In this document: one piece after another, positions 1,887 through 59,588 of the stretch
Numbering within the stretch: the stretch's first letter is position 1
Layout of the letters: each line of letters opens with the position of its first letter
Source: Escherichia coli
GTDB taxonomy: Bacteria > Pseudomonadota > Gammaproteobacteria > Enterobacterales > Enterobacteriaceae
Length of the DNA stretch: 64,000 bases
Reading direction: 5' to 3' (one strand)
Assembly (NCBI RefSeq): GCF_003018255.1
Contig: NZ_CP027440.1
Notes under the pieces: model-generated
Databases searched by the model: none
Seen by the model: only the letters and a program-made list of their open reading frames with translations
Told to the model about the DNA's origin: nothing
Translations under genes and position numbers: made by a program

Positions 1887-2200
1887 ATTGTTCAGTCTCT
1901 TATTATCTTTATATGCTTGATATACTTAAGGTTGTAATAAGCAAAAGAGGACTGAACTGTAAAATATAGGCGTTATACTTTACAGCAACAGTACGCCGCT
2001 AACGCAATTGCTACCTCTGGCATAACAAGTATATCGGGTAAGGGTTTCTGTTCCGCACACGCAGGCGCAGAGTATCGTTAAGATGTCCATATTGTTGTTT
2101 TAATCCCGCTAGTGATGCGCTACGGGTATTTAATATTGTTAACCCCTGATAATCGCTCCGGTTATTTCCGGGATAAATGTACTACCGCAGTTACTATCAT

Positions 2201-9650: not shown

Positions 9651-10793
9651 TCAAATCTGCTTTTCATACAATCGGTAACGCTTGTACGGCTCCGCCCCAA
9701 TGCGTTCCAGCATGTTATTCATGCCTGTATTGGTTTCGAGGATCCATGACATCTCCAGCGCATCGATCTTCCGACGGGCAAACGGATCGCGTAAGGCTTC
9801 AATCAATAACAGCGCAATTACCGGGCCGATGCGGCTGAACTGATACTCGTCCCGCACGCCCATCAGCGGCACTCGCGCAGTTCGCACACCGCTGACTTTC
9901 AAACGCCACAGCAATTTTGCCCAGCCGAAGGGAAAGAGCGATCCGTTCAGATCGGCAATCGCCTCGTTGATGTTCGGCAAGCCAACAATAAACGCGCAGG
10001 GTGCAGAATCAATCTCAGCGATGTAGATCATATCGTCCGGCACCAGATATTTAAGTTGATCGCCCATGGTCGCGAATTCATGTTCGGTAAACGGCACAAA
10101 TCCCCAGTTGTGCTGCCAGCCAGAATTGAAAATCTCACGCAGGATCTGCATCTCTTCGGCAAACCGCTGGCGATTGATGCAGCGAATGGTCACTTTTTTG
10201 CGCACCTGATCCATCAGTTTTTTTAGCGCCGGAGAGAACGTGAGATCGGTTCGCTGCATCCACCACGCCAGTAAATCAATGCCTTTGTGATAACCCAGTT
10301 GTTCAATATGCGCGGCATACCACGGTTTGCCGTGTGGCATCATCGCACAGGGCGGAGTGTCAAAACCTTCAATCAGTAATCCGCTTTCCTGATTGATATT
10401 CAGGCTGAAAGGCCCGCTGATCTTATTTGCACCTTGTGACTTTAACCACGCTTCCGCTGCGCCAAACAACGCGGCAAAAACCTGCGGATCATCAATGGCA
10501 TCAATCATTCCGTAATGACCGGTATCTTCACCGTAACGCTCACGGTGCAAGGTATCGATTTGCGCGGTAATACGCCCAACTATCTGCCCCGCTTTTTTTG
10601 CCACCCACGCCTGCCAGATGATATGGTCCGTCCCCGGATTCTTCGCAGACAAATGCTCGCTGCGTTCAATGAATAAAGGGGGTATCCAGTTTGGATCATC
10701 GGGATAAAGTGATGACGGAAAAGCGATAAATGCCTTAAGGTCATTTTTATTAATTACTTTTTCAATTTTAATCATCAGCAGATCGCATTCCAT
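9651..10793 (-). CDS. yghO: Large GNAT-like acyltransferase (YghO), 380 aa; candidate N-acyltransferase of the adjacent lipid module
   Basis: Full-length ORF convergent with glcC and divergent from the acyl-AMP ligase operon; position matches yghO in K-12; GNAT-like assignment from sequence recognition only. Confidence 0.7.
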   Translation of the reverse strand: MECDLLMIKIEKVINKNDLKAFIAFPSSLYPDDPNWIPPLFIERSEHLSAKNPGTDHIIWQAWVAKKAGQIVGRITAQIDTLHRERYGEDTGHYGMIDAIDDPQVFAALFGAAEAWLKSQGANKISGPFSLNINQESGLLIEGFDTPPCAMMPHGKPWYAAHIEQLGYHKGIDLLAWWMQRTDLTFSPALKKLMDQVRKKVTIRCINRQRFAEEMQILREIFNSGWQHNWGFVPFTEHEFATMGDQLKYLVPDDMIYIAEIDSAPCAFIVGLPNINEAIADLNGSLFPFGWAKLLWRLKVSGVRTARVPLMGVRDEYQFSRIGPVIALLLIEALRDPFARRKIDALEMSWILETNTGMNNMLERIGAEPYKRYRLYEKQI

Positions 10794-11164
10794 ATCTCTG
10801 TGGATAACAAATAATTAACGGTGAAAAACAGGTTGCAACAGCAACGAACGGCATCTTAATAATCAACCCAATGAATACAAACAAAGAATAAATAGTATTT
10901 ATTAATGATTACGATAAGGTCAGAGACTACACAGAAGCGCCACAATGCCTCTTGTCGATTTAAGGCGACCGGACAAGGCTCCTTCTTAATATATTCATAA
11001 ATTAAATATCATTCACAATAAAAACAAAAAAACTCAAACATATTATTTAAATCAATGTTCATTTTCACACCGATGAAAATACTATCTCATTTATCTTTTA
11101 TGCCTATATAATCCACCGCATTATTGTCATTTTATTTTGGATATCCAATTTTTTCGTGGTGTAT

Positions 11165-12889
11165 ATGTCTAATAAAATCTTTACGCATTCCCTACCTATG
11201 CGCTATGCCGATTTTCCAACGCTGGTTGATGCTTTGGACTACGCCGCTCTGAGTAGCGCCGGAATGAATTTTTATGACAGACGTTGCCAACTTGAAGATC
11301 AACTGGAATATCAGACGTTAAAAGCGCGTTCCGAAGCTGGTGCGAAAAGGTTGTTATCGCTGAACCTGAAAAAAGGCGATCGCGTGGCGCTGATTGCCGA
11401 AACGAGTAGCGGGTTTGTAGAGGCTTTTTTTGCCTGCCAGTATGCCGGCTTAGTCGCCGTCCCGTTGGCGATTCCAATGGGCGTCGGTCAGCGGGATTCC
11501 TGGAGCGCCAAACTGCAGGGTTTACTGGCAAGTTGCCAGCCCGCAGCCATTATCACTGGTGATGAGTGGTTGCCACTGGTCAATGCCGCGACGCATAACA
11601 ACAACCCCGAATTACATGTTTTAAGCCACGCCTGGTTTAAGGCATTACCGGAAGCCGATGTTGCGCTCCAGCGTCCAGTTCCAAACGATATCGCCTACCT
11701 CCAGTACACCTCCGGCAGCACCCGTTTTCCCCGTGGCGTCATTATCACCCATCACGAAGTGATGGCTAATCTACGTGCTATAAGCCACGATGGCATTAAA
11801 TTACGCCCTGGCGACCGCTGCGTCTCCTGGCTGCCTTTCTACCATGATATGGGACTGGTCGGCTTTCTCCTGACCCCCGTCGCCACGCAGCTTTCAGTAG
11901 ATTATTTGCGCACTCAGGATTTTGCCATGCGTCCTCTGCAATGGCTTAAATTGATCAGTAAAAATCGCGGCACCGTTTCCGTTGCACCGCCGTTTGGCTA
12001 TGAATTGTGCCAGCGCCGCGTGAATGAAAAAGATCTCGCTGAACTGGATCTTTCCTGCTGGCGCGTCGCTGGTATTGGAGCAGAACCGATCTCCGCAGAA
12101 CAACTCCATCAATTCGCTGAATGTTTTCGTCAGGTTAACTTTGACGATAAAACTTTCATGCCGTGCTACGGACTGGCAGAAAATGCGCTGGCTGTCAGCT
12201 TCTCTGATGAAGCCTGCGGGGTTGTGGTTAACGAAGTGGATCGCGACATCCTCGAATACCAGGGTAAAGCCGTCGCGCCGGGTGCTGAAACACGCGCCGT
12301 ATCGACTTTCGTCAACTGCGGTAAAGCGTTGCCGGAACATGGCATTGAAATCCGCAATGAAGCAGATATACCTGTCGCGGAACGTGTGGTAGGCCATATT
12401 TGCATCTCCGGCCCCAGCCTGATGAGCGGGTACTTTGGCGACCAGGTTTCGCAAGACGAGATTGCCGCGACGGGCTGGTTAGACACCGGCGACCTTGGTT
12501 ATCTGCTGGACGGTTATCTGTATGTCACCGGACGCATTAAAGATCTGATTATTATTCGTGGCCGTAATATCTGGCCGCAGGATATTGAATACATTGCGGA
12601 ACAGGAACCGGAAATTCATTCTGGCGATGCGATTGCTTTTGTTACCGCCCAGGAAAAAATCATTTTGCAGATCCAGTGTCGGATCAGCGACGAAGAACGT
12701 CGCGGGCAGCTTATCCACGCGCTGGCAGCTCGGATCCAAAGCGAATTTGGCGTTACCGCGGATATCGATCTGTTGCCGCCCCACAGTATTCCCCGAACAT
12801 CCTCCGGCAAGCCTGCCCGTGCGGAAGCGAAAAAACGTTATCAGAAGGCTTATGCTGCCAGTCTTCATGTGCAGGAATCCCTGGCATGA
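11165..12889 (+). CDS. Adenylate-forming fatty acyl-AMP ligase / acyl-ACP synthetase-like enzyme, about 574 aa
   Basis: AMP-binding signature (YTSGSTRFPRGV), size typical of acyl-AMP ligases; start uncertain (track GTG at 11156, first ATG at 11165); stop overlaps next gene start (ATGA). Confidence 0.8.
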   Translation: MSNKIFTHSLPMRYADFPTLVDALDYAALSSAGMNFYDRRCQLEDQLEYQTLKARSEAGAKRLLSLNLKKGDRVALIAETSSGFVEAFFACQYAGLVAVPLAIPMGVGQRDSWSAKLQGLLASCQPAAIITGDEWLPLVNAATHNNNPELHVLSHAWFKALPEADVALQRPVPNDIAYLQYTSGSTRFPRGVIITHHEVMANLRAISHDGIKLRPGDRCVSWLPFYHDMGLVGFLLTPVATQLSVDYLRTQDFAMRPLQWLKLISKNRGTVSVAPPFGYELCQRRVNEKDLAELDLSCWRVAGIGAEPISAEQLHQFAECFRQVNFDDKTFMPCYGLAENALAVSFSDEACGVVVNEVDRDILEYQGKAVAPGAETRAVSTFVNCGKALPEHGIEIRNEADIPVAERVVGHICISGPSLMSGYFGDQVSQDEIAATGWLDTGDLGYLLDGYLYVTGRIKDLIIIRGRNIWPQDIEYIAEQEPEIHSGDAIAFVTAQEKIILQIQCRISDEERRGQLIHALAARIQSEFGVTADIDLLPPHSIPRTSSGKPARAEAKKRYQKAYAASLHVQESLA

Positions 12890-13800
12890 ATCAAACTGTC
12901 GCGGTGACGGGCGCTACCGGGTTTATCGGTAAATATATTATTGATAACCTGCTCGCCCGCGGCTTTCACGTTCGCGCATTAACGCGTACTGCCCGCGCTC
13001 ACGTCAATGATAATCTCATCTGGGTGCGCGGTTCGCTGGAAGATACACATTCGCTTAGCGAACTGGTTGCCGGAGCCAGCGCGGTGGTCCATTGCGCCGG
13101 ACAAGTGCGCGGACACAAAGAAGAGATTTTTACCCGCTGTAACGTTGACGGCAGCCTGCGCCTGATGCAAGCGGCAAAAGAGAGCGGCTTTTGCCAACGT
13201 TTTCTGTTTATCTCTTCGCTGGCGGCGCGCCATCCCGAACTCTCCTGGTACGCAAATTCCAAACACGTCGCCGAACAACGACTGATCGCAATGGCTGACG
13301 AAATTACGCTGGGCATTTTTCGCCCGACAGCCGTGTATGGTCCCGGCGATAAAGAGTTAAAACCGCTGTTTGACTGGATGCTGCGCGGCCTGCTGCCACG
13401 ACTTGGTGCGCCAGATACACAACTCTCTTTCCTGCACGTCACCGATTTTGCGCAAGCAGTGGGTCAGTGGTTAAACGCCGAAACTGTACAGACGCAAACC
13501 TATGAATTATGCGATGGCGTCGCTGGCGGCTATGACTGGCAACGCGTACGACAGCTTGCCGCCGAAGCCCGTTGTGGTTCTGTGCGGATGGTTGGCATTC
13601 CTCTGCCGCTACTCACCTGCCTTGCGGATATCAGTACTGCGTTGAGTCGCCTGGCAGGTAAAGAACCTATGCTGACCCGCTCGAAAATTCGTGAATTAAC
13701 CCACGCCGACTGGTCGGCAAATAATAACCGTATTTCTGAAGATATTAATTGGTTTCCCGGGATTAGCCTGGAACACGCATTACGCAACGGGCTATTTTGA
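12886..13800 (+). CDS. NAD(P)-dependent epimerase/dehydratase-family reductase, 304 aa
   Basis: N-terminal Rossmann motif VTGATGFIGKYI; start at ATG 12886 overlapping upstream stop (ATGA); track ORF from 12676 is an out-of-operon extension. Confidence 0.8.
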   Translation: MNQTVAVTGATGFIGKYIIDNLLARGFHVRALTRTARAHVNDNLIWVRGSLEDTHSLSELVAGASAVVHCAGQVRGHKEEIFTRCNVDGSLRLMQAAKESGFCQRFLFISSLAARHPELSWYANSKHVAEQRLIAMADEITLGIFRPTAVYGPGDKELKPLFDWMLRGLLPRLGAPDTQLSFLHVTDFAQAVGQWLNAETVQTQTYELCDGVAGGYDWQRVRQLAAEARCGSVRMVGIPLPLLTCLADISTALSRLAGKEPMLTRSKIRELTHADWSANNNRISEDINWFPGISLEHALRNGLF

Positions 13801-13831
13801 TTGTCTTGTTTAAAGGTGTGTTAACGTTTCT

Positions 13832-14080
13832 ATGGTAAATCGTGAAATAGTAATGGATTACATCCTTTCCTGTTTACAGGATTTGGTCGAAAACGGTGTG
13901 GAAATTAAGCCCGACAGCGATCTCGTCAACGATCTTGGCCTGGAGTCGATCAAAGTGATGGATCTCTTAATGATGCTGGAAGACAGATTCGATATTTCCA
14001 TTCCTATTAATATTCTGCTGGATGTCAAAACCCCTGCGCAATTAATGGAAACTCTACTTCCATGGCTGGAGAATAAATAA
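13832..14080 (+). CDS. Dedicated acyl carrier protein, 82 aa
   Basis: Small acidic protein with phosphopantetheine-attachment-like motif DLGLESIKVMDL; stop overlaps next start (TAATG). Confidence 0.75.
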   Translation: MVNREIVMDYILSCLQDLVENGVEIKPDSDLVNDLGLESIKVMDLLMMLEDRFDISIPINILLDVKTPAQLMETLLPWLENK

Positions 14081-15252
14081 TGGGGCTATACGATAAATAT
14101 GCGCGCCTTGCTGGCGAGCGCCTGCAATTTAGTGACAACGGGTTAACACCATTTGGCACCTGTATTGATGAAGTGTATTCCGCCACCGAAGGCCGGATCG
14201 GCAATAAAAAAGTGATTCTGGCCGGGACCAATAATTATCTCGGTTTAACCTTTAATCATGATGCTATCCGCGAAGGTCAGGCAGCGTTAGCGGCCCAAGG
14301 CACTGGCACCACCGGTTCTCGTATGGCAAACGGCAGTTATGCGCCGCATCTGGCGTTAGAGAAAGAGATTGCCGAGTTTTTCAATCGCCCTACCGCTATC
14401 GTTTTTTCAACCGGTTATACCGCTAATTTAGGTGTCATCAGCGCACTTGCCGACCATAACGCCGTGGTGTTACTGGATGCCGACAGCCACGCCAGTATTT
14501 ATGACGCCTGTTCTCTCGGCGGCGCAGAGATTATTCGTTTCCGCCATAATGACGTCAACGATCTGGAACGGCGCATGGTCCGCCTCGGTGAACGGGCGAA
14601 AGAGGCGATTATTATCGTTGAAGGCATCTACAGTATGCTCGGTGACGTTGCGCCGCTGGCAGAAATTGTTGATATCAAACGTCGTCTCGGTGGTTATTTG
14701 ATTGTCGATGAAGCACATTCGTTTGGCGTGTTAGGCGCAACAGGCCGCGGACTGGTTGAAGCCGTTGGCGTTGAAGACGACGTGGATATTATCGTCGGCA
14801 CCTTCAGTAAAAGTTTGGCTTCCATTGGTGGTTTTGCCGTGGGTTCAGAAGCGATGGAAGTGCTGCGCTACGGCAGCCGCCCGTATATTTTTACCGCCTC
14901 TCCTTCTCCGTCCTGCATTGCGACCGTGCGCTCGTCGTTAAGAACCATTTCCACACAACCAGAGCTGCGGCAAAAACTGATGGATAACGCCAACAATCTG
15001 TATGACGGTCTGCAAAAACTGGGTTATGAGTTAAGTTCACATATTAGCCCGGTAGTGCCAGTAATAATCGGTTCGAAAGAGGAAGGTTTACGCATCTGGC
15101 GCGAGCTTATTTCGCTGGGCGTTTATGTGAATCTTATCCTGCCACCTGCCGCGCCTGCAGGCATCACGCTGCTGCGCTGTAGCGTAAACGCTGCCCACAG
15201 TCGTGAGCAAATCGATGCCATCATTCAGGCATTTGCTACTCTGAAGCAGTAA
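14080..15252 (+). CDS. PLP-dependent alpha-oxoamine synthase, serine-palmitoyltransferase-like, 390 aa
   Basis: Class-II aminotransferase fold with PLP-lysine motif GTFSKSLASIGG; distinct from BioF and Kbl; translationally coupled to the ACP gene. Confidence 0.8.
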   Translation: MGLYDKYARLAGERLQFSDNGLTPFGTCIDEVYSATEGRIGNKKVILAGTNNYLGLTFNHDAIREGQAALAAQGTGTTGSRMANGSYAPHLALEKEIAEFFNRPTAIVFSTGYTANLGVISALADHNAVVLLDADSHASIYDACSLGGAEIIRFRHNDVNDLERRMVRLGERAKEAIIIVEGIYSMLGDVAPLAEIVDIKRRLGGYLIVDEAHSFGVLGATGRGLVEAVGVEDDVDIIVGTFSKSLASIGGFAVGSEAMEVLRYGSRPYIFTASPSPSCIATVRSSLRTISTQPELRQKLMDNANNLYDGLQKLGYELSSHISPVVPVIIGSKEEGLRIWRELISLGVYVNLILPPAAPAGITLLRCSVNAAHSREQIDAIIQAFATLKQ

Positions 15253-15257
15253 TGTGA

Positions 15258-15292
15258 GCCCGCTGTGGTGTTGCGCCACGGCGGGTTTAATG
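15258..15292. terminator. Convergent hairpin (cccgctgtgg...ccacggcggg) with T-rich tail between the synthase gene and the LptG-like gene
   Basis: About 10-bp stem read from sequence, followed by tttaatg. Confidence 0.4.
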
Positions 15293-16366
15293 TTGTCTGT
15301 CATACCAATACACCAGGCTCAACGCCACCAGCACAAACGCTACCGGTAAACCGAGCGCGGTAACAGGTGCGCTCAACGCAAATAACAATCCCAGATTGAC
15401 CATGATTTGATAGCTGATCCAGGTGAGTAAGCCAACGATGACGCCTACAGCGAGACGGCTACCCATCCCAGGCGAACGCGGGGCGCTAAAGGTAAACGGC
15501 ACAGCCAGCAAAATCATCGCCAGGGTCAAGATGGGTTGTCCCAGTTTTTCCCACAGTGCAAGGCGGTATTCGCTGCTGGGTTGCCCGGTTTCCTGCAAAT
15601 AATGGATGTAATGATTAAGTTGACGGACAGAAAAAGTATTTCCCGGCATCGATAACTCTTCAAGATTCATACTGGTGAAGGCCGATTGCCAGGGAAGATT
15701 ATCAGATGTTTCCTGCGTTTCTTTGCCATTCAGCCATTTTTTATGATTCACACCATGCAGGATCCACGTTTTGTCGTCTTCAATGGTAGCACTGCGCGCA
15801 TAAATGTAGGATTCGAGCGAGAGATCATCGCGGTAATGAAATATCTCCACGTCCACCGGCTGGCCCTGCTCGTTCAGCGATTTCACCGTCACAAATTCAT
15901 TACCACGCCTGGCCCACAGCATATTGCCGGTAATGTCATCGTCCTCCCCCAACGCAGTGGCAGTCGATTTGATTTGCAGCGCCTGTTGCTGCAATGGCGA
16001 CGCCACCCACTCATCTATCGCGCCTAATGAAACAGTCCACAATATCCCGGCAACCAGCGCCACCAGTGCAATACGGAAGATAGAAAACCCCGTGCTGCGA
16101 ATGGCGGTAAGCTCACTGTTTTTCGATAACTGCCCCAGGCCGACAATCCCTCCCAATAAGGCGATAAACGGCGAAAGTTCGACCAGTGTGCGCGGTAAGG
16201 TCATCAGCACCACCAGCACCGCCTGAGTCCAGCGATAACCACCCGGGCTGACATCATCCAGTTCGTTAATCAGGTTGAAGGTGGTAAAAAGCGGCAGCAA
16301 TAGCCCTGCGGCGGCGGCAAAACCGAGAAAGAGATGACGGATTAAATAGCGACTGAAAACATTCAT
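15287..16366 (-). CDS. LptG/LptF-family (YjgP/YjgQ) permease paralog, about 359 aa
   Basis: N-terminus MNVFSRYLIRHLF typical of LptF/G permeases; trimmed to ATG at 16366 overlapping upstream stop (ATGA). Confidence 0.75.
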   Translation of the reverse strand: MNVFSRYLIRHLFLGFAAAAGLLLPLFTTFNLINELDDVSPGGYRWTQAVLVVLMTLPRTLVELSPFIALLGGIVGLGQLSKNSELTAIRSTGFSIFRIALVALVAGILWTVSLGAIDEWVASPLQQQALQIKSTATALGEDDDITGNMLWARRGNEFVTVKSLNEQGQPVDVEIFHYRDDLSLESYIYARSATIEDDKTWILHGVNHKKWLNGKETQETSDNLPWQSAFTSMNLEELSMPGNTFSVRQLNHYIHYLQETGQPSSEYRLALWEKLGQPILTLAMILLAVPFTFSAPRSPGMGSRLAVGVIVGLLTWISYQIMVNLGLLFALSAPVTALGLPVAFVLVALSLVYWYDRQH

Positions 16367-17433
16367 CGGGAAAATTTCTGCAGCAAAGAGAAGTCGCGTG
16401 CGACCAACATCAGCAGGCCCATTAGCATGAGTCCGGGTACTAACCACAAACCAGGAATGAGGGGAATCGCGCCGTTAGCCACCAGCGTACGGCAGACGTC
16501 GCCGCCATAAAAAATGGCAACAAACAGCAACGTCAGTGGCAATAACGTTGAAAATCGCCCTTGCCGCGGTTTTACCCGACTTAATGAAATGGCCAGCAGC
16601 GCCATCAACAATGCTGTCAGGCCACGGCTTTGTCGCCATTGCAGTTCGGCATGATCGGCAGGAAAGGCGGAGCGCGCCAGCTCCGTGACCGATTTTGCTT
16701 TGCGTTTGACGTTAGGGCTTTGATCCAGCGGATTCAGATGTAATTGCAGATTACGGTAGATCTGTTCGTTGTCGTCACGCCCCTGATGATCGAGAAGATA
16801 GGCGGTCCCGTTATGCAACATAACGGTCGGTTTCTCAGGTGATGGGTCAACCACATCAACCGAACGGGCGCGGAAAATGCGGGTTCGATTAGCAGTAGAA
16901 GTATAAATCAGCGCATCAGTCAGGCGATTATTATCCTGATCAACCGTCTGCGAAAGGATCATTCGTCCGTTATCGTTAGTGTTAAATTTCTTTGCCCGCA
17001 ACTGGCGAACATCCAGCTCCGACTGTGACTGTTGCTCCAGTTGATAAATCTGCGCATAAGCCCACGGACGACCATACATCGACAGAAGGGTGACAAAAAT
17101 ACTTAGCGGTATCGCCAGATAAAGAACGGCTTTGTACAAGCGTCCCGGACTGCCCCCCGCCGCAGAGATAGCGGTAATTTCCGAGTCGGTATACATCTGC
17201 CCTAGCGTCACGCCAACTGACACATACAGTCCAACAGGTAACAACATCTCCAGTGCAATCAGCACTTTGTAGAAAACGATATCCAGCACAACATCAAGAG
17301 CTAATGTCCCATTTGCCGCTTCGGTCAGATAACGCTGTGCGGAGTAGCTGGCGAAAATAAAGATCAGAAAACCGACGATAATCAGCACCAGACGGCGCGT
17401 ACCACGCATGATGTAGTGTTCAACCAGCTTCAT
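16363..17433 (-). CDS. LptF/LptG-family (YjgP/YjgQ) permease paralog, 356 aa
   Basis: Polytopic membrane protein with LptF/G-like N-terminus; operon partner of 15287-16366. Confidence 0.75.
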   Translation of the reverse strand: MKLVEHYIMRGTRRLVLIIVGFLIFIFASYSAQRYLTEAANGTLALDVVLDIVFYKVLIALEMLLPVGLYVSVGVTLGQMYTDSEITAISAAGGSPGRLYKAVLYLAIPLSIFVTLLSMYGRPWAYAQIYQLEQQSQSELDVRQLRAKKFNTNDNGRMILSQTVDQDNNRLTDALIYTSTANRTRIFRARSVDVVDPSPEKPTVMLHNGTAYLLDHQGRDDNEQIYRNLQLHLNPLDQSPNVKRKAKSVTELARSAFPADHAELQWRQSRGLTALLMALLAISLSRVKPRQGRFSTLLPLTLLFVAIFYGGDVCRTLVANGAIPLIPGLWLVPGLMLMGLLMLVARDFSLLQKFSR

Positions 17434-17462
17434 CTCACTAACGCCCTCAATCCTTTGAATTT

Positions 17463-18026
17463 TTATTCATTGATCAGCTTCTGCGCCAGCGCAATGACAT
17501 GATCTACCTCTTCCGGCGTCAGGCTGCCGTCCTTTGCCCACTGAATTTGCCCGGTTTTATTCAGCACCAGAATGGTTGAACTCTGCTCCTGCAAGTGCCA
17601 GGCAACGCGTCCCTGTCCATTGCCGTCAATAACGAATTGCGCCCATGGATAGCGGCGTTTATTTTTTTCGATTTTGCCAACGACAAAATAGCCGGTACCA
17701 AAGATGGCATCATCAGTGTTCACAATGGTGGTGGGCTGAAAACGATCCTGCGGAAAGTTTGCCGCTTCAACTGCTTTAATTAACAGTGAGTTCTTTTTCT
17801 TCGCCGACTTACGCCCGGCGATATACTGAATAATGCGAACTTTTCCCGCCAATTGGGTGCTGTTCCACTTTTGGTAGTGAATTTCGTCGTCGCTATTCCG
17901 AAGCAGCTCGCCGCCTTCCTGGATATAAACGGGGGTAACCGTTTTGCCAGTGACGAAATTGTGTGCCTGCACACCCGGGGCTAAGAGCATGATAATCAGC
18001 GCAATAATCAAACGAGATGACATCAT
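17463..18026 (-). CDS. Secreted/periplasmic protein with cleavable signal peptide, possibly YtfJ-like, 187 aa
   Basis: N-terminal signal peptide (...LLAPGVQA/HN); family assignment tentative. Confidence 0.55.
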   Translation of the reverse strand: MMSSRLIIALIIMLLAPGVQAHNFVTGKTVTPVYIQEGGELLRNSDDEIHYQKWNSTQLAGKVRIIQYIAGRKSAKKKNSLLIKAVEAANFPQDRFQPTTIVNTDDAIFGTGYFVVGKIEKNKRRYPWAQFVIDGNGQGRVAWHLQEQSSTILVLNKTGQIQWAKDGSLTPEEVDHVIALAQKLINE

Positions 18027-18034
18027 TGCTCCGG

Positions 18035-18859
18035 TTATAGCGGAAAACGCGAAATCAGCAGTTCTAAGCGCTGGCGAATATCGCTATCCAGCGCCATCGG
18101 TGCATCATACGACTGGCGGTTTTCCATATCATCCGCCACCATGTCGTCGTGTTTATCCCCCATCAGGCCATTAATGGCGGCGAGGAAGCGGGAAATCTGT
18201 AACGCTTCTTTATTTTCAGGATCAAGCGATCTTAGGGTGTCGTAATAAGAAACCTGCTGGCTGATGATTTTTCGCACATCATGAAATTCCCTGCCGGTTA
18301 GTCGCGGTTTGGCAATTATCTCTTTCAGGGTATGCATTTGCTTTTGCCGATAGGCAATAAAACCGCTTACGCTTTCTAACTGGCTATGGCGTAATGAATA
18401 GTTCACCAACGACCAGACCGGAGAGCTTAAATAAACCCGTAACAGGTTGCCGTAATACGACACAATATTTTTCTTACCGTTACGAAAGCCGTCCTGAAAA
18501 CGCCCCAAAAAAACGGTCGTTTTGCCGAATAAAAATCCGGCCTGATGCTTCTTTAAATACAGCCGTTGCGCAAAACGCAGGTGCTTGTAGCGCGCTCGCA
18601 TGTATTTAAATTGTTTGCGCTCATCAGCAGTCAGCTCATCGCCTTTGGCCTGTTTGCATATTAAACGCAGTAACTCCTGGCGATTGACGCCATTGAGCCA
18701 GAATTGCAGGCATAACGCGTAATTATCATGGATGATTTCGGTGGTACAACTTAGTGCGATAGTCGGCGGCAAACTGACCTGTGCATCAACGACATCATCT
18801 TCTTCAATCGCAACAAATAGACGCTCGCTCGCCTCTAGCGGGAAATATTTTCTCATCAT
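18035..18859 (-). CDS. Hypothetical protein, 274 aa
   Basis: Full-length ORF in operon; start overlaps the stop of yghQ by 1 nt; no domain recognised. Confidence 0.6.
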   Translation of the reverse strand: MMRKYFPLEASERLFVAIEEDDVVDAQVSLPPTIALSCTTEIIHDNYALCLQFWLNGVNRQELLRLICKQAKGDELTADERKQFKYMRARYKHLRFAQRLYLKKHQAGFLFGKTTVFLGRFQDGFRNGKKNIVSYYGNLLRVYLSSPVWSLVNYSLRHSQLESVSGFIAYRQKQMHTLKEIIAKPRLTGREFHDVRKIISQQVSYYDTLRSLDPENKEALQISRFLAAINGLMGDKHDDMVADDMENRQSYDAPMALDSDIRQRLELLISRFPL

Positions 18860-20208
18860 CAGGATTTCTCTCCGGCTGCGTTATAAAGCAAGGAATGGCG
18901 CTGAAAAAATGCCTTTAAGGTCGGAATTAGCGAAAGCACCACATCCAGACATTGACCACCGAAATAAGCAAACGCTGCTCCCAGCACGCCAAACAGATGA
19001 CAGAACATGAACAGCAATACGATGTAGCCGATTGAGGCGATGGTTTGCGCCACGAGAAAAGCGCGCTGTTTTCCCGCCATCAATAGCAATGACTCCTGAG
19101 GGAAGCCCAGCATCGAGATCACAATTGCGCCCAGCATCACCTGAATCAGGTCATACGCTTCGAGATACTTAACGCCAAACACCAGCGAAATGAGCGGCTT
19201 GCCGACAATCAACACCGCGAGCGCCACCAGAATACCGATTCCGCCCGCCAGTAAACCTGACTTCACGCCTAACAACCACGGTCTGGTGGTACGCGGATCT
19301 AAACGCATCACCTCTGGGTAAAAACTTTTGCCCAGTAAACCCGCTGGCGTTCCGGCGGCGTCGAAGAATGTCATGGCGATTTTAAATAACCCGGCGGCAG
19401 CGGGTCCTAACACGATCCCCACCAACACTGTGCTGCACGAATTACGCGCCGACCAGATGGAATGGGCAATGTTGGTTGACCAGACAAAACTCCACGCGCC
19501 TTTGATGTGTCGGGCAGACTCAAACAGATTCAATTTGAACGCGTTATGGATATTTCTGCGGCGTAATTCACGTGCGGCAAACCACCAGTACATGGTGCCG
19601 CCAACAAGATTCGAGGCGTACCAGGCAATAACAAAACCCGCAAAACCAAAGTCAAAATACCAGGCAACGACGCTCCCCGCTGCGCGCAGAAAAGGTTTCG
19701 TCGCTTGCTGTACAGCAATTAGATCGAAGCGATCTACCGCACGCAGAATGCCGGTCGGCGTGGAGGAAGCCATTGAAGGAATGAGCGTGCAATACAGCGC
19801 TGCCAGCCAAAAGCTTTGGTCATCCAGACCTAATGAATGGGAAAGAAAAGGGAGTAAGGCAATGCCGCCGACAATCGCCACCGCGCCGCTGACGATATCC
19901 AGCGAGAAGGAAAATGAGACGACATTGCGGAATTGCTGCGGATTATTGTTGGTTAATGCTGGTGTTCCGTACTGAACCACCAGCTGCCATGTCTGAAACT
20001 TAATAAAATCGCTGATCGACTTGGCGTACGATTGTACAATCACCAGTACGCCAAACATGGCGGGCGTCATCCCTTTACCGGCACACGAGAGCGCCAACAG
20101 ACCCAGCAAAGCGCTCACGACATTACTGGAGCCTAACCAGGCGCTATTGCGAATAATGGTGCGAAACGCGCCATCTGCAAACCAATGTTTGATGTTAAAA
20201 CCCGCCAA
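18859..20208 (-). CDS. yghQ: MOP-superfamily flippase/exporter, full-length 449 aa
   Basis: Polytopic membrane ORF at the K-12 yghQ position; K-12 YghQ recalled as 355 aa, suggesting a 3'-truncated K-12 copy. Confidence 0.75.
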   Translation of the reverse strand: MAGFNIKHWFADGAFRTIIRNSAWLGSSNVVSALLGLLALSCAGKGMTPAMFGVLVIVQSYAKSISDFIKFQTWQLVVQYGTPALTNNNPQQFRNVVSFSFSLDIVSGAVAIVGGIALLPFLSHSLGLDDQSFWLAALYCTLIPSMASSTPTGILRAVDRFDLIAVQQATKPFLRAAGSVVAWYFDFGFAGFVIAWYASNLVGGTMYWWFAARELRRRNIHNAFKLNLFESARHIKGAWSFVWSTNIAHSIWSARNSCSTVLVGIVLGPAAAGLFKIAMTFFDAAGTPAGLLGKSFYPEVMRLDPRTTRPWLLGVKSGLLAGGIGILVALAVLIVGKPLISLVFGVKYLEAYDLIQVMLGAIVISMLGFPQESLLLMAGKQRAFLVAQTIASIGYIVLLFMFCHLFGVLGAAFAYFGGQCLDVVLSLIPTLKAFFQRHSLLYNAAGEKS

Positions 20209-20253
20209 TTCAGCCTGACCTTATCGTTGATAGTAAAAAGTATCCCGCCAGCC

Positions 20254-21012
20254 TTAAGTTAAACTTCGGCGGTCAGAAACGATGGCAACCAGAGAAACCG
20301 CCTTCTGTGCCTGTTCCAGCACTTCGCTGTAGGGCGCTCTGGAATCAATCTCAAGAATTTTTGTGCCGTTATAGCCAATCGTCGACATGACGCCGATTTT
20401 GTCCTGCAGCTCGGCATAGTCATGGTCAGGCTTGCGGGAGATGGCAGTATCAATATCAATCCCCAAACGAATGATTAATTCAGGACGGTATTGCGCCATT
20501 TGTTGGTATAAACGCCGTTCGCGCTGCGCCAGAAACATGCTGATTTTCCCGGTCGCACGTTCGACGCCGATCCCCGGTCCGTCATAATAAAAGCCCGAAA
20601 TTTCAGCCTGCGGGAAGCGATCGCTGACCACCAGAACGCCACTTTGCGCCAGTCGCTGAACCTTGCGTAGATTCGCCATTCTTCGCAGCGAGAAGCAGTA
20701 CATAATCACCGCCGCCCATAGCGCTGGAGATTTGGTTTTCATGCTTTGGGTTTTCGAGGATTTGGCCGCCAGTCGCCGTTCGAGCCAGACGCCAACCAAC
20801 GGCAATCGTTTGATTTTGTCGCCGTCTTCGCCCGAGAGCAGCCCCAGATAGCGCCGCTCGGTTTGCCAGTGTTGTTGCAGCGATTTCACCAGGTCGGTGG
20901 TCAGTGTGGATTTACCGGTGCCATCACACCCGACCACCGCAATCAGCCCCGGAATGTAGTTGGGCTGCGGCGCGGTTGTACTATTAACAGTTTGTGTTTG
21001 TAGTGCGTCCAT
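20254..21012 (-). CDS. yghR: P-loop kinase, thymidylate/deoxynucleoside-kinase-like, 252 aa
   Basis: Walker A GCDGTGKST and downstream SDRFPQ motif; length matches K-12 YghR. Confidence 0.85.
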   Translation of the reverse strand: MDALQTQTVNSTTAPQPNYIPGLIAVVGCDGTGKSTLTTDLVKSLQQHWQTERRYLGLLSGEDGDKIKRLPLVGVWLERRLAAKSSKTQSMKTKSPALWAAVIMYCFSLRRMANLRKVQRLAQSGVLVVSDRFPQAEISGFYYDGPGIGVERATGKISMFLAQRERRLYQQMAQYRPELIIRLGIDIDTAISRKPDHDYAELQDKIGVMSTIGYNGTKILEIDSRAPYSEVLEQAQKAVSLVAIVSDRRSLT

Positions 21013-21043: not shown

Positions 21044-21757
21044 TCAGGAAAGCGCGGCGTGAATTGCGCGTAGTGACGCTTGCAGAATTTCATCGGCGGG
21101 TTGCCGACCATCCAGTTCAAGGATCTTTGCACCATTAAATGTCAGTTGCGGCGTAACGGCGATTTTTTCCTGTAACGCCGCCAGTTGGTGGTCAGGTTTA
21201 CGCGCAAACGCGGTTTGTTCATCAATGCCAAGACGAATCAACAATACGGGCAAATAAGACGCCATCCATTGGTACAGCTTCAGCTCGCGCTGCCTTAACA
21301 TTTTTATCCAACCGTTACCGCCCGTGGTTTTTGCCAATTGCGGGCCATCAAAGCGAAAACCCGGCACTTCAACCTGCGGGTAGCGGTCGGTGATGAGCAG
21401 ATAGCCTTGCTGGCTTTTACACAACATTTTGCGAAACTTGTACGCCCGCCAGCAGGAAAGCAGATAGATAACCAGCGCAGTAATATTGCCAGGTGGTGTG
21501 GAGGGCTTTTCGTGCACATGTGCCGCTTTACTTCGCAGATAACGCCCAAAAGGTGCGCCAATAACAGGGAGCTGTGAAATCCATTCGCCAATTCGCCCGG
21601 ACGATTGCCCGAGATAAATGTGTTCTGTTGGCATTGTTGCTGCCAGTTCATTTACCAGGCTTGCCGTGAGGGTCGATTTACCTGAACCATCACATCCTAC
21701 AATGGCAATAACACGCACTGGCGTGGAATTAATTATTGACATATTACGTTGATTCAC
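21044..21757 (-). CDS. yghS: P-loop kinase paralog, 237 aa
   Basis: Walker A GCDGSGKST and TDRYPQ motif; paralog of yghR; length matches K-12. Confidence 0.85.
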   Translation of the reverse strand: MNQRNMSIINSTPVRVIAIVGCDGSGKSTLTASLVNELAATMPTEHIYLGQSSGRIGEWISQLPVIGAPFGRYLRSKAAHVHEKPSTPPGNITALVIYLLSCWRAYKFRKMLCKSQQGYLLITDRYPQVEVPGFRFDGPQLAKTTGGNGWIKMLRQRELKLYQWMASYLPVLLIRLGIDEQTAFARKPDHQLAALQEKIAVTPQLTFNGAKILELDGRQPADEILQASLRAIHAALS

Positions 21758-21931: not shown

Positions 21932-22624
21932 ATGCAGTCAATAATACCTCCATTAATTGCCGTTATTGGTAGCGATGGTTCAGGCAAGTCAACGGTGTGT
22001 GAACATCTTATTACCGTTGTCGAAAAATATGGTGCTGCCGAAAGAGTTCATTTAGGAAAACAGGCCGGAAATGTCGGTCGTGCAGTGACAAAATTACCGT
22101 TGATGGGAAAGTCTCTGCACAAGACTATTGAAAAAAATGAAGTGAAAACGGCAAAAAAATTGCCGGGTCCGGTTCCGGCCCTGGTGATCACCGCTTTCGT
22201 CGCCCGCCGACTGTTACGCTTTCGTCATATGCTCGCCTGTCGTCGTCGCGGGCTGATTGTCTTAACCGATCGTTATCCTCAGGACCAAATTCCTGGCGCT
22301 TACGATGGTACGGTGTTCCCACCTAACGTTGAAGGCGGCCGGTTTGTCTCATGGCTGGCAAGCCAGGAACGTAAAGCATTTCACTGGATGGCGAGCCATA
22401 AGCCTGATCTGGTCATCAAACTCAATGTTGACCTTGAAGTTGCCTGCGCGCGTAAACCCGACCATAAACGGGAATCGCTGGCGAGGAAGATTGCCATAAC
22501 GCCACAGTTAACCTTTGGCGGTGCACAACTGGTTGATATCGATGCTAATCAGCCACTGGAAAAGGTGCTGGTTGATGCAGAAAAAGCGATTACGGATTTT
22601 ATGACCGCGCGTGGTTATCACTAG
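21932..22624 (+). CDS. yghT: P-loop kinase paralog, 230 aa
   Basis: Walker [10 protein letters not shown] and TDRYPQ motif; divergent from yghS; length matches K-12. Confidence 0.85.
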
Positions 22625-27430: not shown

Positions 27431-27517
27431 TGTAGGCCGGATAAGGCGTTCACGCCGCATCCGGCAATCGAGCACAATGCCTGATGCGACGCTGCCGCGT
27501 CTTATCAGGCCTACAAA
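27431..27517. repeat. Two inverted REP units (BIME-like)
   Basis: Units ...taggccggataaggcgttcacgccgcatccggca... and ...gcctgatgcgacgctgccgcgtcttatcaggcctaca... between yghU and hybG. Confidence 0.8.
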
Positions 27518-44099: not shown

Positions 44100-44203
44100 G
44101 CTTTTTACGCCTCAAACTTTCGTTTTCGGGCATTTCGTCCAGACTTAAGTTCACAACACCTCACCGGAGCCTGCTCCGGTGAGTTCATATAAAGGAGGAA
44201 CGT

Positions 44204-56485: not shown

Positions 56486-57145
56486 ATGCGAATTTTACTG
56501 ATAGAAGATGACATGCTGATTGGCGACGGCATCAAAACGGGCCTTAGTAAAATGGGTTTTAGCATCGACTGGTTTACACAAGGTCGTCAGGGAAAAGAGG
56601 CGCTATATAGCGCGCCTTATGATGCGGTGATCCTGGATTTAACCTTACCAGGCATGGATGGTCGCGATATTTTGCGCGAATGGCGAGAAAAAGGTCAGCG
56701 TGAGCCGGTACTGATCCTGACCGCGCGCGATGCGCTGGCGGAACGTGTAGAAGGGCTGCGTCTGGGAGCTGACGATTATCTGTGTAAACCTTTTGCGTTG
56801 ATAGAAGTCGCCGCCAGGCTGGAAGCTCTGATGCGCCGAACCAACGGCCAGGCCAGCAACGAGCTGCGCCACGGCAACGTCATGCTCGACCCCGGCAAAC
56901 GTATCGCCACGCTGGCTGGCGAACCCTTAACGCTGAAACCAAAAGAATTTGCCCTGCTGGAATTACTGATGCGTAACGCTGGTCGGGTACTGCCGCGCAA
57001 ACTGATTGAAGAGAAACTGTATACCTGGGACGAAGAGGTCACCAGTAATGCCGTTGAAGTGCATGTGCATCATCTGCGACGCAAACTCGGCAGTGATTTT
57101 ATTCGTACCGTTCATGGTATTGGCTACACATTAGGTGAGAAATGA
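56486..57145 (+). CDS. qseB: Two-component response regulator (OmpR family), 219 aa
   Basis: Receiver domain plus winged-helix output; stop overlaps qseC start (ATGA). Confidence 0.95.
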
Positions 57146-58491: not shown

Positions 58492-58499
58492 CTTCTCTG

Positions 58500-58536
58500 T
58501 CTATGAGAGCCGTTAAAACGACTCTCATAGACTTTA
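58500..58536. terminator. Convergent terminator hairpin between qseC and ygiZ
   Basis: Perfect 10-bp stem tctatgagag / ctctcataga followed by tttact. Confidence 0.6.
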
Positions 58537-58869: not shown

Positions 58870-58875
58870 ATCTGA

Positions 58876-59586: not shown

Positions 59587-59588
59587 AT

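What the first reader, a model, noticed from the sequence alone, without database searches (positions are those of the whole stretch)
17463..18859. Two uncharacterised proteins in the export operon
A signal-peptide protein (187 aa, possibly YtfJ-like) and a 274-aa protein with no recognisable domain lie between the LptF/G-like pair and yghQ; the 274-aa gene start overlaps the yghQ stop by 1 nt. They are candidate periplasmic or accessory components, or head-group-modifying enzymes, of the lipid system.
Basis: inference. Interest (0 to 1): 0.45.

Follow-up and report, generated by a model that had tools for sequence, protein, structure and literature searches.

The report
CHAD and YtfJ genes, sphingolipid locus
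Both genes are real and conserved parts of the E. coli sphingolipid gene cluster that K-12 has lost: one is a secreted, cysteine-free YtfJ paralogue, and the "domain-less" one is a diverged polyphosphate-binding-type (CHAD) protein always made together with the cluster's lipid flippase and kinases, which points to an unknown phosphate-rich head group.

Summary
Both ORFs exist at the stated coordinates, sit tightly packed in a minus-strand operon, and are under purifying selection (dN/dS 0.07-0.17).

The window is E. coli. The locus is the published sphingolipid cluster (yghO/cerS, aasR, cerR, acpR, spt, lptG2, lptF2), which an IS5 deletion removed from K-12.

The 187-aa protein is a YtfJ-family paralogue, 53% identical to canonical YtfJ. 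It has a signal peptide and a thioredoxin-like fold but no cysteine. An invariant basic motif, AGRxSAKKKN, sits where the redox CXXC would be. Its mature pI is 9.3, against 6.35 for canonical YtfJ. It is linked to the cluster only in Enterobacterales.

My reading: a cytoplasmic anion-binding partner of the kinase and flippase step, and a periplasmic anion-binding helper. The mechanism is inferred, not shown.

The parts
18035..18859 (-). 274-aa diverged CHAD-domain protein (RefSeq WP_000984989.1, 'hypothetical'). Soluble and basic (pI 9.2). Its start overlaps the yghQ stop by 1 nt.
17463..18026 (-). 187-aa YtfJ-family paralogue ('YtfJ2'). Signal peptide, predicted cleavage VQA|HNF. Cysteine-free thioredoxin-like fold. 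Invariant AGRxSAKKKN motif at the CXXC position.
18859..20208 (-). yghQ, full-length 449-aa MOP/Wzx-type flippase (truncated by IS5 in K-12). Translationally coupled to the CHAD-like gene.
   Evidence: Family scans: Pfam Polysacc_synt 1.1e-10 and NF007773 MOP flippase. The stop/start overlap with the CHAD-like gene is conserved in other genomes. The K-12 truncation is seen.
20254..21012 (-). yghR, thymidylate-kinase-superfamily P-loop kinase paralogue.
   Evidence: Weak direct match to Pfam Thymidylate_kin, 9.8e-6. Family profile A5 hits solved thymidylate kinases, best 1.9e-7. Co-located with the CHAD-like gene in 72 of 79 loci.
21044..21757 (-). yghS, thymidylate-kinase-superfamily P-loop kinase paralogue. 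Probable first gene of the minus-strand operon.
   Evidence: Family assignment. A promoter-like site lies at 21835-21807 on the minus strand.
21932..22624 (+). yghT, third kinase paralogue, divergently transcribed. Carries a hydrophobic/amphipathic insert (residues 77-95).
   Evidence: Family assignment.
16363..17433 (-). lptF2, LptF-like permease of the sphingolipid locus.
   Evidence: Pfam LptF_LptG 2.3e-54. The Caulobacter LptF2/LptG2 work is in bioRxiv 10.64898/2026.04.12.717747.
15287..16366 (-). lptG2, LptG-like permease (RefSeq start; a longer GTG ORF runs to 16447).
   Evidence: Pfam LptF_LptG 1.1e-69. RefSeq annotation.
15255..15289 (.). Hairpin with a 16-pair stem between the convergent spt and lptG2 ends. 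Probable bidirectional terminator and end of the operon.
   Evidence: Terminator scan.
14080..15252 (+). spt, serine palmitoyltransferase.
   Evidence: RefSeq annotation. The BL21 orthologue ECD_02854 was assayed in PMC9386255.
13832..14080 (+). acpR, specialised acyl carrier protein.
   Evidence: RefSeq annotation. PMC9386255.
12886..13800 (+). epi/cerR, NAD-dependent epimerase/dehydratase-family reductase.
   Evidence: RefSeq annotation. PMC9386255.
11156..12889 (+). aasR, fatty acyl-AMP ligase / acyl-AcpR synthetase.
   Evidence: RefSeq annotation. PMC9386255.
9651..10793 (-). yghO (aca/bCerS), N-acyltransferase for ceramide synthesis.
   Evidence: RefSeq annotation. PMC9386255.

Best explanation
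Shown: the window carries the complete E. coli sphingolipid locus. Its minus-strand operon is yghS-yghR-yghQ-[274 aa]-[187 aa]-lptF2-lptG2, with yghT divergent. It holds the locus's kinase, flippase and LptF/G-like permease genes. I read it as the head-group and export half of the locus.

Shown: the 274-aa protein is a cytoplasmic, basic, all-helical CHAD-fold protein. It keeps basic residues at the positions that coordinate polyphosphate in the central cavity of solved CHAD domains (K85-x-x-R88-x-x-x-K92, and H193-x-x-R196-K197). It is made in fixed proportion with the YghQ flippase, because the stop and start codons overlap in many lineages.

Inferred: the three membrane-associated, thymidylate-kinase-like enzymes YghR/S/T phosphorylate ceramide or its head group at the inner face of the inner membrane. 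The CHAD-like protein binds the resulting phosphate-rich anion, or a polyphosphate or nucleotide donor for it. It acts as a scaffold or hand-over adaptor between the kinases and YghQ, which flips the anionic lipid.

Shown: the 187-aa protein is a periplasmic, redox-dead thioredoxin-fold YtfJ paralogue that has become strongly basic.

Inferred: in Enterobacterales it binds the anionic head group, or the lipid-loaded membrane surface, on the periplasmic side and helps delivery to LptF2G2. In Caulobacter, LptF2 and LptG2 are needed to move anionic sphingolipid out of the inner membrane.
For: Locus identity; PMC9386255; bioRxiv 10.64898/2026.04.12.717747.

CHAD fold and homology:
- AF2 model pLDDT 91.4.
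- The family profile hits 6qv5 at E=7.6e-4, with the H/K-xx-R-xxx-K/R motifs aligned in register.
- Relatives P0344, P0349, P0354 and P0360 pass Pfam's CHAD gathering score.
- The N-terminal and C-terminal halves align in the expected register, as for an internal duplication.
- The residues mutated in CtCHAD and SsCHAD that lower polyP binding are the H-xx-R-xxx-R triad (PMC6537752).

Coupling to yghQ and the kinases: yghQ lies directly upstream in 63 of 79 loci from Enterobacterales, Xanthomonadales, Sphingomonadales and Bombella. 39 of these overlap by exactly 1 or 4 nt. YghR/S/T-type genes lie within 10 kb in 72 of 79 loci.

Link to sphingolipid: spt, aasR, cerR and acpR are adjacent in Enterobacterales and Xanthomonadales. 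Most of the remaining carriers are Sphingomonadales and Acetobacteraceae, orders that include Spt-containing genera.

Kinases: thymidylate-kinase superfamily, with hydrophobic inserts.

Precedent for pairing thymidylate-kinase-like paralogues with CHAD: the Sulfolobus PPK3 operon (PMC12995831).

YtfJ2. It lies immediately downstream of the CHAD-like gene in 43 of 44 Enterobacterales-type loci (adjacent but on the opposite strand in L009), even where lptF2G2 have moved.

Purifying selection.
Against: - No experiment or lipid structure is available for the E. coli product. I found no paper describing it.
- The E. coli protein itself does not reach any Pfam CHAD score.
- Several basic residues of the second CHAD repeat are replaced (S200-Q-Q-V where RcCHAD has K-R-x-R), so the ligand may not be polyphosphate.
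- Foldseek against the PDB gave no significant hit.
- In Sphingomonadales and Acetobacteraceae the module is not next to spt, so the link to sphingolipid there rests on taxonomy only.
- The Caulobacter locus has a YghQ-family flippase but uses an unrelated DAG-kinase-type ceramide kinase, and no CHAD gene is described in it. A CHAD protein is therefore not generally required for anionic sphingolipids.
- The YtfJ family also occurs in genomes and contexts unrelated to sphingolipid. Canonical ytfJ is near-universal in E. coli, including strains that lack the locus.
- The YtfJ2 model is only of moderate confidence.
- YghR/S/T are not closer to the PPK3 structure than to ordinary thymidylate kinases.
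Confidence: 0.45

Rival explanations
1. The CHAD-like protein is a regulator rather than a substrate handler. It senses cellular polyphosphate or phosphate status. By binding YghQ or the kinases, it gates head-group synthesis or flipping according to phosphate supply.
For: [quoted passage not shown] The central basic triad is kept. Stop/start overlap implies a fixed ratio with YghQ. Sphingomonadales and Carnimonas place a two-component system next to the module. Caulobacter remodels its sphingolipids under phosphate starvation (title and abstract of PMC6445935, listed).
Against: There is no evidence of polyP binding by this clade. Part of the second basic patch is lost. A regulator would not need such strict translational coupling to one membrane protein across orders.
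Confidence: 0.2
2. The yghRST-yghQ-CHAD module has nothing specific to do with sphingolipid. It builds or exports another envelope molecule, for example a phosphorylated polyprenol-linked glycan as typical MOP flippases do, or polyphosphate itself made by PPK3-like kinases. It merely sits next to spt in some lineages.
For: In about 30 Sphingomonadales and Acetobacteraceae loci there is no spt, aasR or cerR within 10 kb. Acetobacter loci have ArnT-like and ArnC-like glycosyltransferase genes nearby, and several loci have a GT4-like gene. MOP flippases classically act on polyprenyl-PP substrates (established knowledge). The thymidylate-kinase-like plus CHAD pairing is that of the polyphosphate kinase PPK3.
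Against: In 39 Enterobacterales-type and 5 Xanthomonadales loci the module is contiguous with the ceramide genes (the remaining Enterobacterales-type loci are cut at a contig or locus end). In E. coli it shares an operon with lptF2G2. Nearly all named carriers belong to Spt-containing groups. The Caulobacter sphingolipid locus also contains a Polysacc_synt-family flippase whose mutants share moderate cofitness with mutants in CC_1156 and CC_1152. No ppx or sixA neighbours were seen.
Confidence: 0.15
3. YtfJ2 is a periplasmic enzyme that modifies the head group (for example a phosphatase or transferase) rather than a binding or hand-over factor. Alternatively, it replaces LptC by bridging LptF2G2 to LptA.
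For: Many residues are invariant in and around the position equivalent to the thioredoxin active site: R72, K76, K77, N79, D105, D106, E120, K121, N122. This degree of conservation is typical of a catalytic or specific ligand site. lptC2 is restricted to Caulobacter, so Enterobacterales need some other partner.
Against: There is no cysteine, metal-binding motif or known catalytic signature. The fold is thioredoxin-like, not the OstA/LptC beta-jellyroll. YtfJ2 stays with the CHAD-like gene rather than with lptF2G2 when the locus is rearranged. The housekeeping LptC could serve, just as LptB is shared in Caulobacter.
Confidence: 0.15
4. One or both ORFs are decaying remnants or mis-called genes with no function.
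For: They are the least conserved proteins of the cluster between Escherichia species, at 84-91% identity against 92-99% for the other genes. Truncated database entries exist.
Against: dN/dS is 0.07-0.17. Full-length orthologues span four orders. The structure predictions are confident. Gene order and codon overlaps are conserved.
Confidence: 0.02

Closest known systems
CHAD domain proteins (Pfam PF05235): Ricinus RcCHAD 6qv5, Chlorobium CtCHAD 3e0s, Streptomyces phosin PptA 6rn5, E. coli YgiF C-terminal domain
   Same: Two four-helix bundles with internal pseudo-symmetry. Basic overall (pI 9.2). Repeated H/K-xx-R-xxx-K/R and G-xx-H/Q-D motifs at equivalent positions. The best structural matches by a clear margin.
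   Different: The E. coli sequence is below any Pfam score. The first 'conserved histidine' is a lysine, and part of the second basic patch is replaced. The genomic partners are a MOP flippase and lipid-locus kinases, not CYTH/TTM, PPK1/2 or PPX. Polyphosphate binding is untested.
Sulfolobus acidocaldarius PPK3 operon (sixA-ppx-saci_2019-saci_2020-CHAD protein saci_2021; PMC12995831)
   Same: Several thymidylate-kinase-superfamily paralogues are encoded next to a stand-alone CHAD protein.
   Different: There is no ppx or sixA here; a flippase, LptFG paralogues and ceramide genes are present instead. YghR/S/T carry hydrophobic inserts. In the profile search they are no closer to the cPPK3 homologue structure (2plr/5h70, E 0.0079) than to ordinary thymidylate kinases (1.9e-7). 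E. coli also has PPK1 (established knowledge).
Canonical E. coli YtfJ (b4216; ytfK-ytfJ-ytfI-cysQ-cpdB region) and the YtfJ_HI0045 family (PF09695/TIGR01626)
   Same: 53% identity over the full length. Same signal peptide plus AH(N/Q)F mature end, same AGRxSA..KN motif, no cysteine.
   Different: YtfJ2 is encoded inside the sphingolipid operon. It is present in about 76% of E. coli genomes rather than nearly all. It is much more basic (pI 9.27 against 6.35; KKK in place of QEK in the motif). The function of the family is unknown.
Periplasmic thioredoxin-fold oxidoreductases (DsbE/CcmG, TlpA, ResA) and peroxiredoxins
   Different: No CXXC and no cysteine at all in the mature protein, so it cannot perform thiol redox chemistry.
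Caulobacter crescentus sphingolipid head-group and transport genes (CpgA-D, CC_1166 flippase, LptC2/F2/G2)
   Same: A Polysacc_synt-family flippase and LptF/G paralogues lie beside the ceramide genes. An anionic product is expected to need export.
   Different: E. coli lacks CpgA-D and LptC2 within this locus and has YghR/S/T, the CHAD-like protein and YtfJ2 instead. The Caulobacter ceramide kinase is a DAG-kinase-family enzyme, not a P-loop kinase. No CHAD or YtfJ gene is described in the Caulobacter locus.

Membership tests
CHAD domain (PF05235) | Sequence matches the Pfam CHAD model at or above the gathering score (25.6 bits) | tested here: not met
   The E. coli protein gives no CHAD hit even at E<=1. 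Full-length relatives found with it at E 1e-14 to 1e-18 do pass: P0349 35.1 bits, P0354 27.5, P0360 26.6, P0344 26.0. 19 of 66 family members hit at E<=0.01. Homology is therefore transitive.
CHAD domain (PF05235) | Fold: two four-helix bundles related by pseudo-twofold symmetry | tested here: met
CHAD domain (PF05235) | Conserved basic residues of the central cavity (H-xx-R-xxx-R triad and partners) that bind polyphosphate | tested here: inconclusive
   K85, R88 and K92 align with RcCHAD H58, R61 and R65, and H193 and R196 align with the second repeat. R88, H193 and R196 are invariant and K92 is >=90% conserved in 66 sequences. Against this, H is replaced by K in repeat 1 and K-R-x-R is lost in repeat 2. 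The mapping is by sequence alignment only; no 3D mapping was possible.
CHAD domain (PF05235) | Binds inorganic polyphosphate | not testable with these tools
   Needs a binding assay with purified protein.
YtfJ_HI0045 family (PF09695 / TIGR01626) | Full-length match above the curated cutoffs | tested here: met
   PF09695 201 bits (cutoff 24). TIGR01626 212.5 bits (cutoff 151.1).
YtfJ_HI0045 family (PF09695 / TIGR01626) | Secreted: N-terminal signal peptide | tested here: met
   The sequence shows an MMSSR n-region, a hydrophobic core (KD19 2.03) and a VQA|H cleavage motif that is invariant across orthologues. No dedicated signal-peptide predictor was available.
Thiol-disulfide oxidoreductases / peroxiredoxins (thioredoxin-like) | Redox-active CXXC or a peroxidatic cysteine | tested here: not met
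   The mature YtfJ2 has no cysteine. 22 of 24 orthologues have none. The fold alone matches.
LptC/LptA (OstA beta-jellyroll) - the 'LptC2' role | Beta-jellyroll fold, with or without an N-terminal membrane anchor | tested here: not met
   The 274-aa protein is all-alpha. The 187-aa protein has an alpha/beta thioredoxin fold. Neither gives a Pfam LptC or OstA hit.
PPK3-type polyphosphate kinase system | Thymidylate-kinase-like paralogues of the PPK3 clade, encoded with CHAD and with polyP enzymes (PPX, SixA) | tested here: inconclusive
   Kinase paralogues plus a CHAD gene are present. No ppx or sixA was seen in the flanks. Clade membership is not shown: 2plr/5h70 scores E 0.0079 against 1.9e-7 for ordinary thymidylate kinases. 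No phylogeny was done.
Proteobacterial sphingolipid locus (spt-acpR-aasR-cerR-cerS plus transport genes) | Physical linkage and co-inheritance with the ceramide synthesis genes | tested here: met
   Same locus in E. coli. Contiguous in 39 Enterobacterales-type and 5 Xanthomonadales loci. Not contiguous in Sphingomonadales and Acetobacteraceae.

The most novel reading that the evidence does not exclude
The YghR/S/T + CHAD + YghQ module builds a pyro- or polyphosphate-type head group on ceramide, or on another lipid carrier, possibly using polyphosphate as donor as PPK3 does. YghQ flips this lipid-anchored phosphate polymer, and in Enterobacterales YtfJ2 and LptF2G2 carry it to the outer membrane. 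This would be a previously unknown class of surface lipid and a new job for CHAD domains, in most wild E. coli but missing from K-12.
Probability: 0.12. Interest if true: 0.85.

Novelty: new variant of a known kind. Interest (0 to 1): 0.55.

Why it matters
About three quarters of complete E. coli genomes carry a full sphingolipid locus that K-12 lost. I could find no description of the lipid's head group, nor of how it crosses the inner membrane. The 2024 and 2026 Caulobacter papers state that sphingolipid flippases and transport are still unknown.

A CHAD-type anion-binding protein is co-translated with the flippase and co-inherited with three thymidylate-kinase-like enzymes in Spt-containing proteobacterial groups. 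This gives a concrete, testable handle on both questions. It predicts a phosphate-rich head group made by a route unlike Caulobacter's CpgA-D. It names two deletion targets and a set of point mutants. It also extends CHAD domains beyond polyphosphate granule and triphosphatase contexts.

For YtfJ, a family with no known function, the specialised basic paralogue offers a first functional context.

Tried and rejected
1. One of the two proteins as the missing LptC2/LptA analogue. Rejected on fold: all-alpha CHAD and a thioredoxin-like fold.

2. Direct Pfam, NCBIfam and PDB sequence searches with the 274-aa protein gave nothing usable.

4. The search for related loci with the broad alignment A2 failed because no stretch was conserved enough. 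The narrower A3 worked, but it searches with only two peptide patterns, so the taxonomic list is a lower bound.

5. Domain fusions as functional clues. APH-kinase plus double CHAD-like proteins (P0371, P0388) and others exist, but they belong to the far (<=30% identity) part of the family. Their contexts lack yghQ and the kinases, so I did not lean on them.

6. YghR/S/T as PPK2. No Pfam PPK2 hit.

7. YghR/S/T as PPK3-clade members. Not supported by the profile search.

8. CC_1167 of Caulobacter as a hidden CHAD gene. It is a CDP-glycerol glycerophosphotransferase-like protein.

9. Literature searches for the E. coli sphingolipid product, for YtfJ function, and for any link between CHAD and sphingolipid found nothing relevant.

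10. N-terminal histidine of mature YtfJ2 as a copper 'histidine brace'. No second invariant histidine.
Full report
**1. What is in the window**

The window is E. coli chromosome from the glc-yghO...yghQRST-pitB-gss-hyb region. The two ORFs named in the finding are there exactly as described: 17463-18026 (-), 187 aa, and 18035-18859 (-), 274 aa.

The 274-aa ATG shares its A with the TGA of the upstream 449-aa yghQ (TGATG). The 274-aa stop lies 8 nt before the 187-aa ATG, with a GGAG in between. The 187-aa stop lies 29 nt before lptF2.

On the minus strand a promoter-like site lies upstream of yghS. No strong terminator-like site lies inside the run yghS-yghR-yghQ-274-187-lptF2-lptG2. A hairpin with a 16-pair stem separates the end of lptG2 from the convergent spt. 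These are pattern matches, not proof, but they fit one seven-gene operon.

**2. The locus is already known, the two genes are not**

The plus-strand genes aasR, epi/cerR, acpR and spt, together with yghO (the N-acyltransferase), are the ceramide synthesis genes of E. coli BL21(DE3). Their AcpR, AasR and Spt were assayed in PMC9386255. A 2026 preprint shows the E. coli UTI89 locus beside that of Caulobacter. It reports that the LptF/LptG paralogues of the Caulobacter locus form a complex, bind LptB, and can be deleted only when anionic sphingolipid is not made. It also states that lptC2 is restricted to Caulobacter.

Neither paper, nor any other I could find, discusses the 187-aa or 274-aa genes.

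In K-12 MG1655 an IS5 element sits between a yghO remnant and a 3'-truncated yghQ, so both genes are absent from the laboratory strain. The 6-kb region is complete in 4090 of 5426 complete E. coli genomes.

**3. Both are genuine genes**

dN/dS against Escherichia sp. E1V33, E. whittamii and Pseudocitrobacter is 0.07-0.08 for the 274-aa gene and 0.10-0.17 for the 187-aa gene. That is in the range of their neighbours (0.02-0.20). Between Escherichia species they are nevertheless the most diverged proteins of the cluster, at 84-91% identity.

**4. The 187-aa protein ('YtfJ2')**

- It matches Pfam YtfJ_HI0045 (1.2e-59) and TIGR01626 (212 bits, cutoff 151).
- It is 53% identical to canonical YtfJ. 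The canonical gene lies at ytfK-ytfJ-ytfI-cysQ-cpdB and is present in essentially every E. coli genome. The paralogue is complete in 4120 of 5426.
- The N-terminus is a typical signal peptide, with an invariant A|HNF junction.
- The mature protein has no cysteine. 22 of 24 orthologues have none.
- At the end of the strand and the start of the helix, where CXXC sits in redox members, there is an invariant A-G-R-x-S-A-K-K-K-N.
- The mature paralogue has pI 9.27 (orthologue median 9.3), whereas canonical YtfJ has pI 6.35 and QEK in place of KKK. Only one canonical sequence was compared.

So this is a redox-dead, secreted thioredoxin-fold protein whose locus-specific copy has turned basic. That suits an anionic ligand or surface. 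This last step is inference.

**5. The 274-aa protein**

Direct scans find nothing. An exhaustive phmmer search finds a family of 207 representatives at 50% identity.

A 66-sequence profile hits the 6qv5 sequence at E=7.6e-4, with the signature motifs in register. 19 of the 66 members hit Pfam CHAD, and at least four full-length ones exceed the gathering score. The two halves of the protein align to each other in the expected register, weakly.

The residues shown by mutagenesis to bind polyphosphate in CtCHAD and SsCHAD are the H-xx-R-xxx-R triad (PMC6537752). They correspond by sequence alignment to K85, R88 and K92 here. The second repeat keeps H193, R196 and K197 but has lost the following K-R-x-R.

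The protein is basic (pI 9.2; family median 9.3). It has no signal peptide or membrane segment.

Conclusion: it is a diverged member of the CHAD superfamily and probably cytoplasmic. Whether it still binds polyphosphate is unknown.

**6. Genomic company**

A pattern scan of one genome per GTDB species returned 79 loci. I searched them with the 13 proteins of the E. coli locus.

The carriers are:
- Enterobacterales (44 loci of this type);
- Xanthomonadales (Luteibacter, Rhodanobacter, Dyella);
- Sphingomonadales (Novosphingobium, Sphingobium, Sphingopyxis, Sphingomonas and others);
- Acetobacteraceae (Acetobacter, Komagataeibacter, Bombella);
- a few others.

In 63 loci, from Enterobacterales, Xanthomonadales, Sphingomonadales and Bombella, a yghQ-type flippase gene ends within 26 nt of the CHAD-like start. 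In 39 of these the codons overlap by exactly 1 or 4 nt (ATGA, GTGA, TGATG, TAATG). In Acetobacter and Komagataeibacter the yghQ-like gene is nearby but not directly upstream.

YghR/S/T-type kinase genes lie within 10 kb in 72 of 79 loci.

spt, aasR, cerR and acpR are adjacent in the Enterobacterales-type loci not cut at a contig or locus end (39 of 44) and in the 5 Xanthomonadales loci, and nowhere else.

ytfJ2 and lptF2G2 are within 10 kb only in Enterobacterales. There ytfJ2 lies immediately downstream of the CHAD-like gene in 43 of 44 loci, and adjacent but on the opposite strand in L009. This holds even in loci where lptF2G2 have moved to the other side, for example L009, L011, L020, L021 and L035-L037.

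Members of the family below about 30% identity sit in unrelated contexts.

The conserved core is therefore kinases + flippase + CHAD-like. YtfJ2 is an enterobacterial addition.

**7. The kinases**

YghR, YghS and YghT are mutually 35-40% identical. As a family they match solved thymidylate kinases (best E 1.9e-7). They carry a hydrophobic/amphipathic insert after the P-loop, for example YghT residues 77-95. That would suit action at a membrane.

A 2026 paper shows that in Sulfolobus two thymidylate-kinase-like paralogues form the polyphosphate kinase PPK3 and are encoded in an operon that also encodes a CHAD protein (PMC12995831). The gene pairing is the same here.

However, YghR/S/T are no closer to the PPK3-type structure than to ordinary thymidylate kinases, and no ppx or sixA gene is nearby. 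I treat this as an analogy and a lead, not as membership.

The Caulobacter ceramide kinase CpgB belongs to a different fold family, the DAG kinases. The rest of the Caulobacter head-group genes (CpgA, C, D) are absent from the E. coli locus. The E. coli head group is therefore likely to be made differently.

**8. Proposed mechanism**

Shown:
- locus identity;
- the folds of both proteins;
- the sequence features behind the predicted compartments (signal peptide on YtfJ2; none, and no membrane segment, on the CHAD-like protein);
- gene coupling and distribution.

Inferred:
- YghR/S/T phosphorylate ceramide or its head group at the cytoplasmic face.
- The CHAD-like protein binds the phosphate-rich product or donor and bridges the kinases to YghQ.
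- YghQ flips the anionic lipid.
- YtfJ2 binds it on the periplasmic side.
- LptF2G2, probably powered by the housekeeping LptB as in Caulobacter, extract it towards the outer membrane.

I put about 0.9 on the identities and the locus membership, and about 0.35-0.45 on the mechanism as a whole.

The main rivals are:
- a regulatory, polyphosphate-sensing role for the CHAD-like protein;
- a module that serves a different envelope molecule and is only a neighbour of spt;
- an enzymatic or LptC-like role for YtfJ2.

**9. Novelty and verdict**

The locus and the YtfJ family assignment are already known or annotated. Three things appear to be undescribed:
- that the 'hypothetical' protein is a CHAD-fold protein;
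- that it forms a conserved, translationally coupled unit with a MOP flippase and thymidylate-kinase-like enzymes in Spt-containing proteobacterial groups;
- that the locus's YtfJ copy is a basic, specialised paralogue.

This is a new variant of known kinds, not a new kind of system. It is of moderate interest because it makes the open questions of head-group identity and inner-membrane flipping of enterobacterial sphingolipids directly testable.

Noticed in passing
L085 (K-12 MG1655 3124000-3136000), corresponding to window ~10700-19150: In K-12 an IS5 element (insH9) lies between a yghO remnant and a 3'-truncated yghQ. It replaces aasR through the 3' end of yghQ, so the whole ceramide/CHAD/YtfJ2/LptF2G2 segment is missing from the laboratory strain.
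   Followed up: yes
L038 9692-11760, L045 9119-10816; proteins P0244, P0371, P0388: The CHAD-like gene is tandemly duplicated in some Xanthomonadales. It is fused as a double unit in P0244 (564 aa). Two units follow an APH/choline-kinase-type domain in proteins of about 980 aa from unrelated contexts.
   Followed up: partly
L052 4912-7025, L054, L061, L062, L066 and L050 11172-13136: In Sphingomonadales and Carnimonas an OmpR-type response regulator and a sensor histidine kinase lie directly beside the kinase-yghQ-CHAD module. They may be its regulators.
   Followed up: no
L077 10875-12317 (-) (Bombella favorum); likewise L078: Two YghS/YghT-like kinase units are fused into one 480-aa ORF. This fits the paralogues working as a hetero-oligomer.
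   Followed up: no
protein P0032: A 280-aa E. coli protein named GspM (PF04612) is 97% identical to 81% of the CHAD-like protein. It looks like a deletion that fuses the upstream type II secretion gene gspM to this gene in some strain.
   Followed up: no
L031 (record titled Martelella alba BGMRC 2031): A genome labelled as an alphaproteobacterium carries an Enterobacterales-type locus, including ytfJ2 and lptF2G2, at 61-78% identity to E. coli. This may be contamination, a mislabelled record or recent transfer. UniRef names its copy 'CHAD domain-containing protein', the only database name that points to CHAD.
   Followed up: no
window 15000-21000 in strains 13P477T and E371 (hits H1, H2): An IS3-family transposase is inserted inside this region in two otherwise 100% identical strains.
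   Followed up: no
window 15255-15289: A hairpin with a 16-pair stem (9 G-C pairs) sits between the convergent ends of spt and lptG2. It overlaps the lptG2 stop and is probably a bidirectional terminator.
   Followed up: partly
window 15287-16447: The mechanical ORF for lptG2 starts at a GTG (386 aa) and overlaps lptF2 by 85 nt. RefSeq uses the internal ATG at 16366 (359 aa), which gives a 4-nt ATGA overlap with the lptF2 stop.
   Followed up: partly
window 1965-2186 (+), 27435-27511, 44102-44165 (+): Rfam matches above the gathering score: C0719 sRNA, naRNA4 (matches on both strands) and ES173 sRNA.
   Followed up: no
window 58001-60000: G+C falls to 0.39 just downstream of the qseBC-like pair (219-aa and 449-aa ORFs at 56486-58491), over the short minus-strand ORFs at 58537-60068.
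   Followed up: no
L043 3525-4283, 10804-18400; L069 10863-13194: Lineage-specific neighbours of the module. Xanthomonadales have an aspartyl beta-hydroxylase (LpxO)-like gene and RND efflux genes. Acetobacter has ArnT-like and ArnC-like glycosyltransferase genes. These assignments are by eye from the sequences, not from scans.
   Followed up: no
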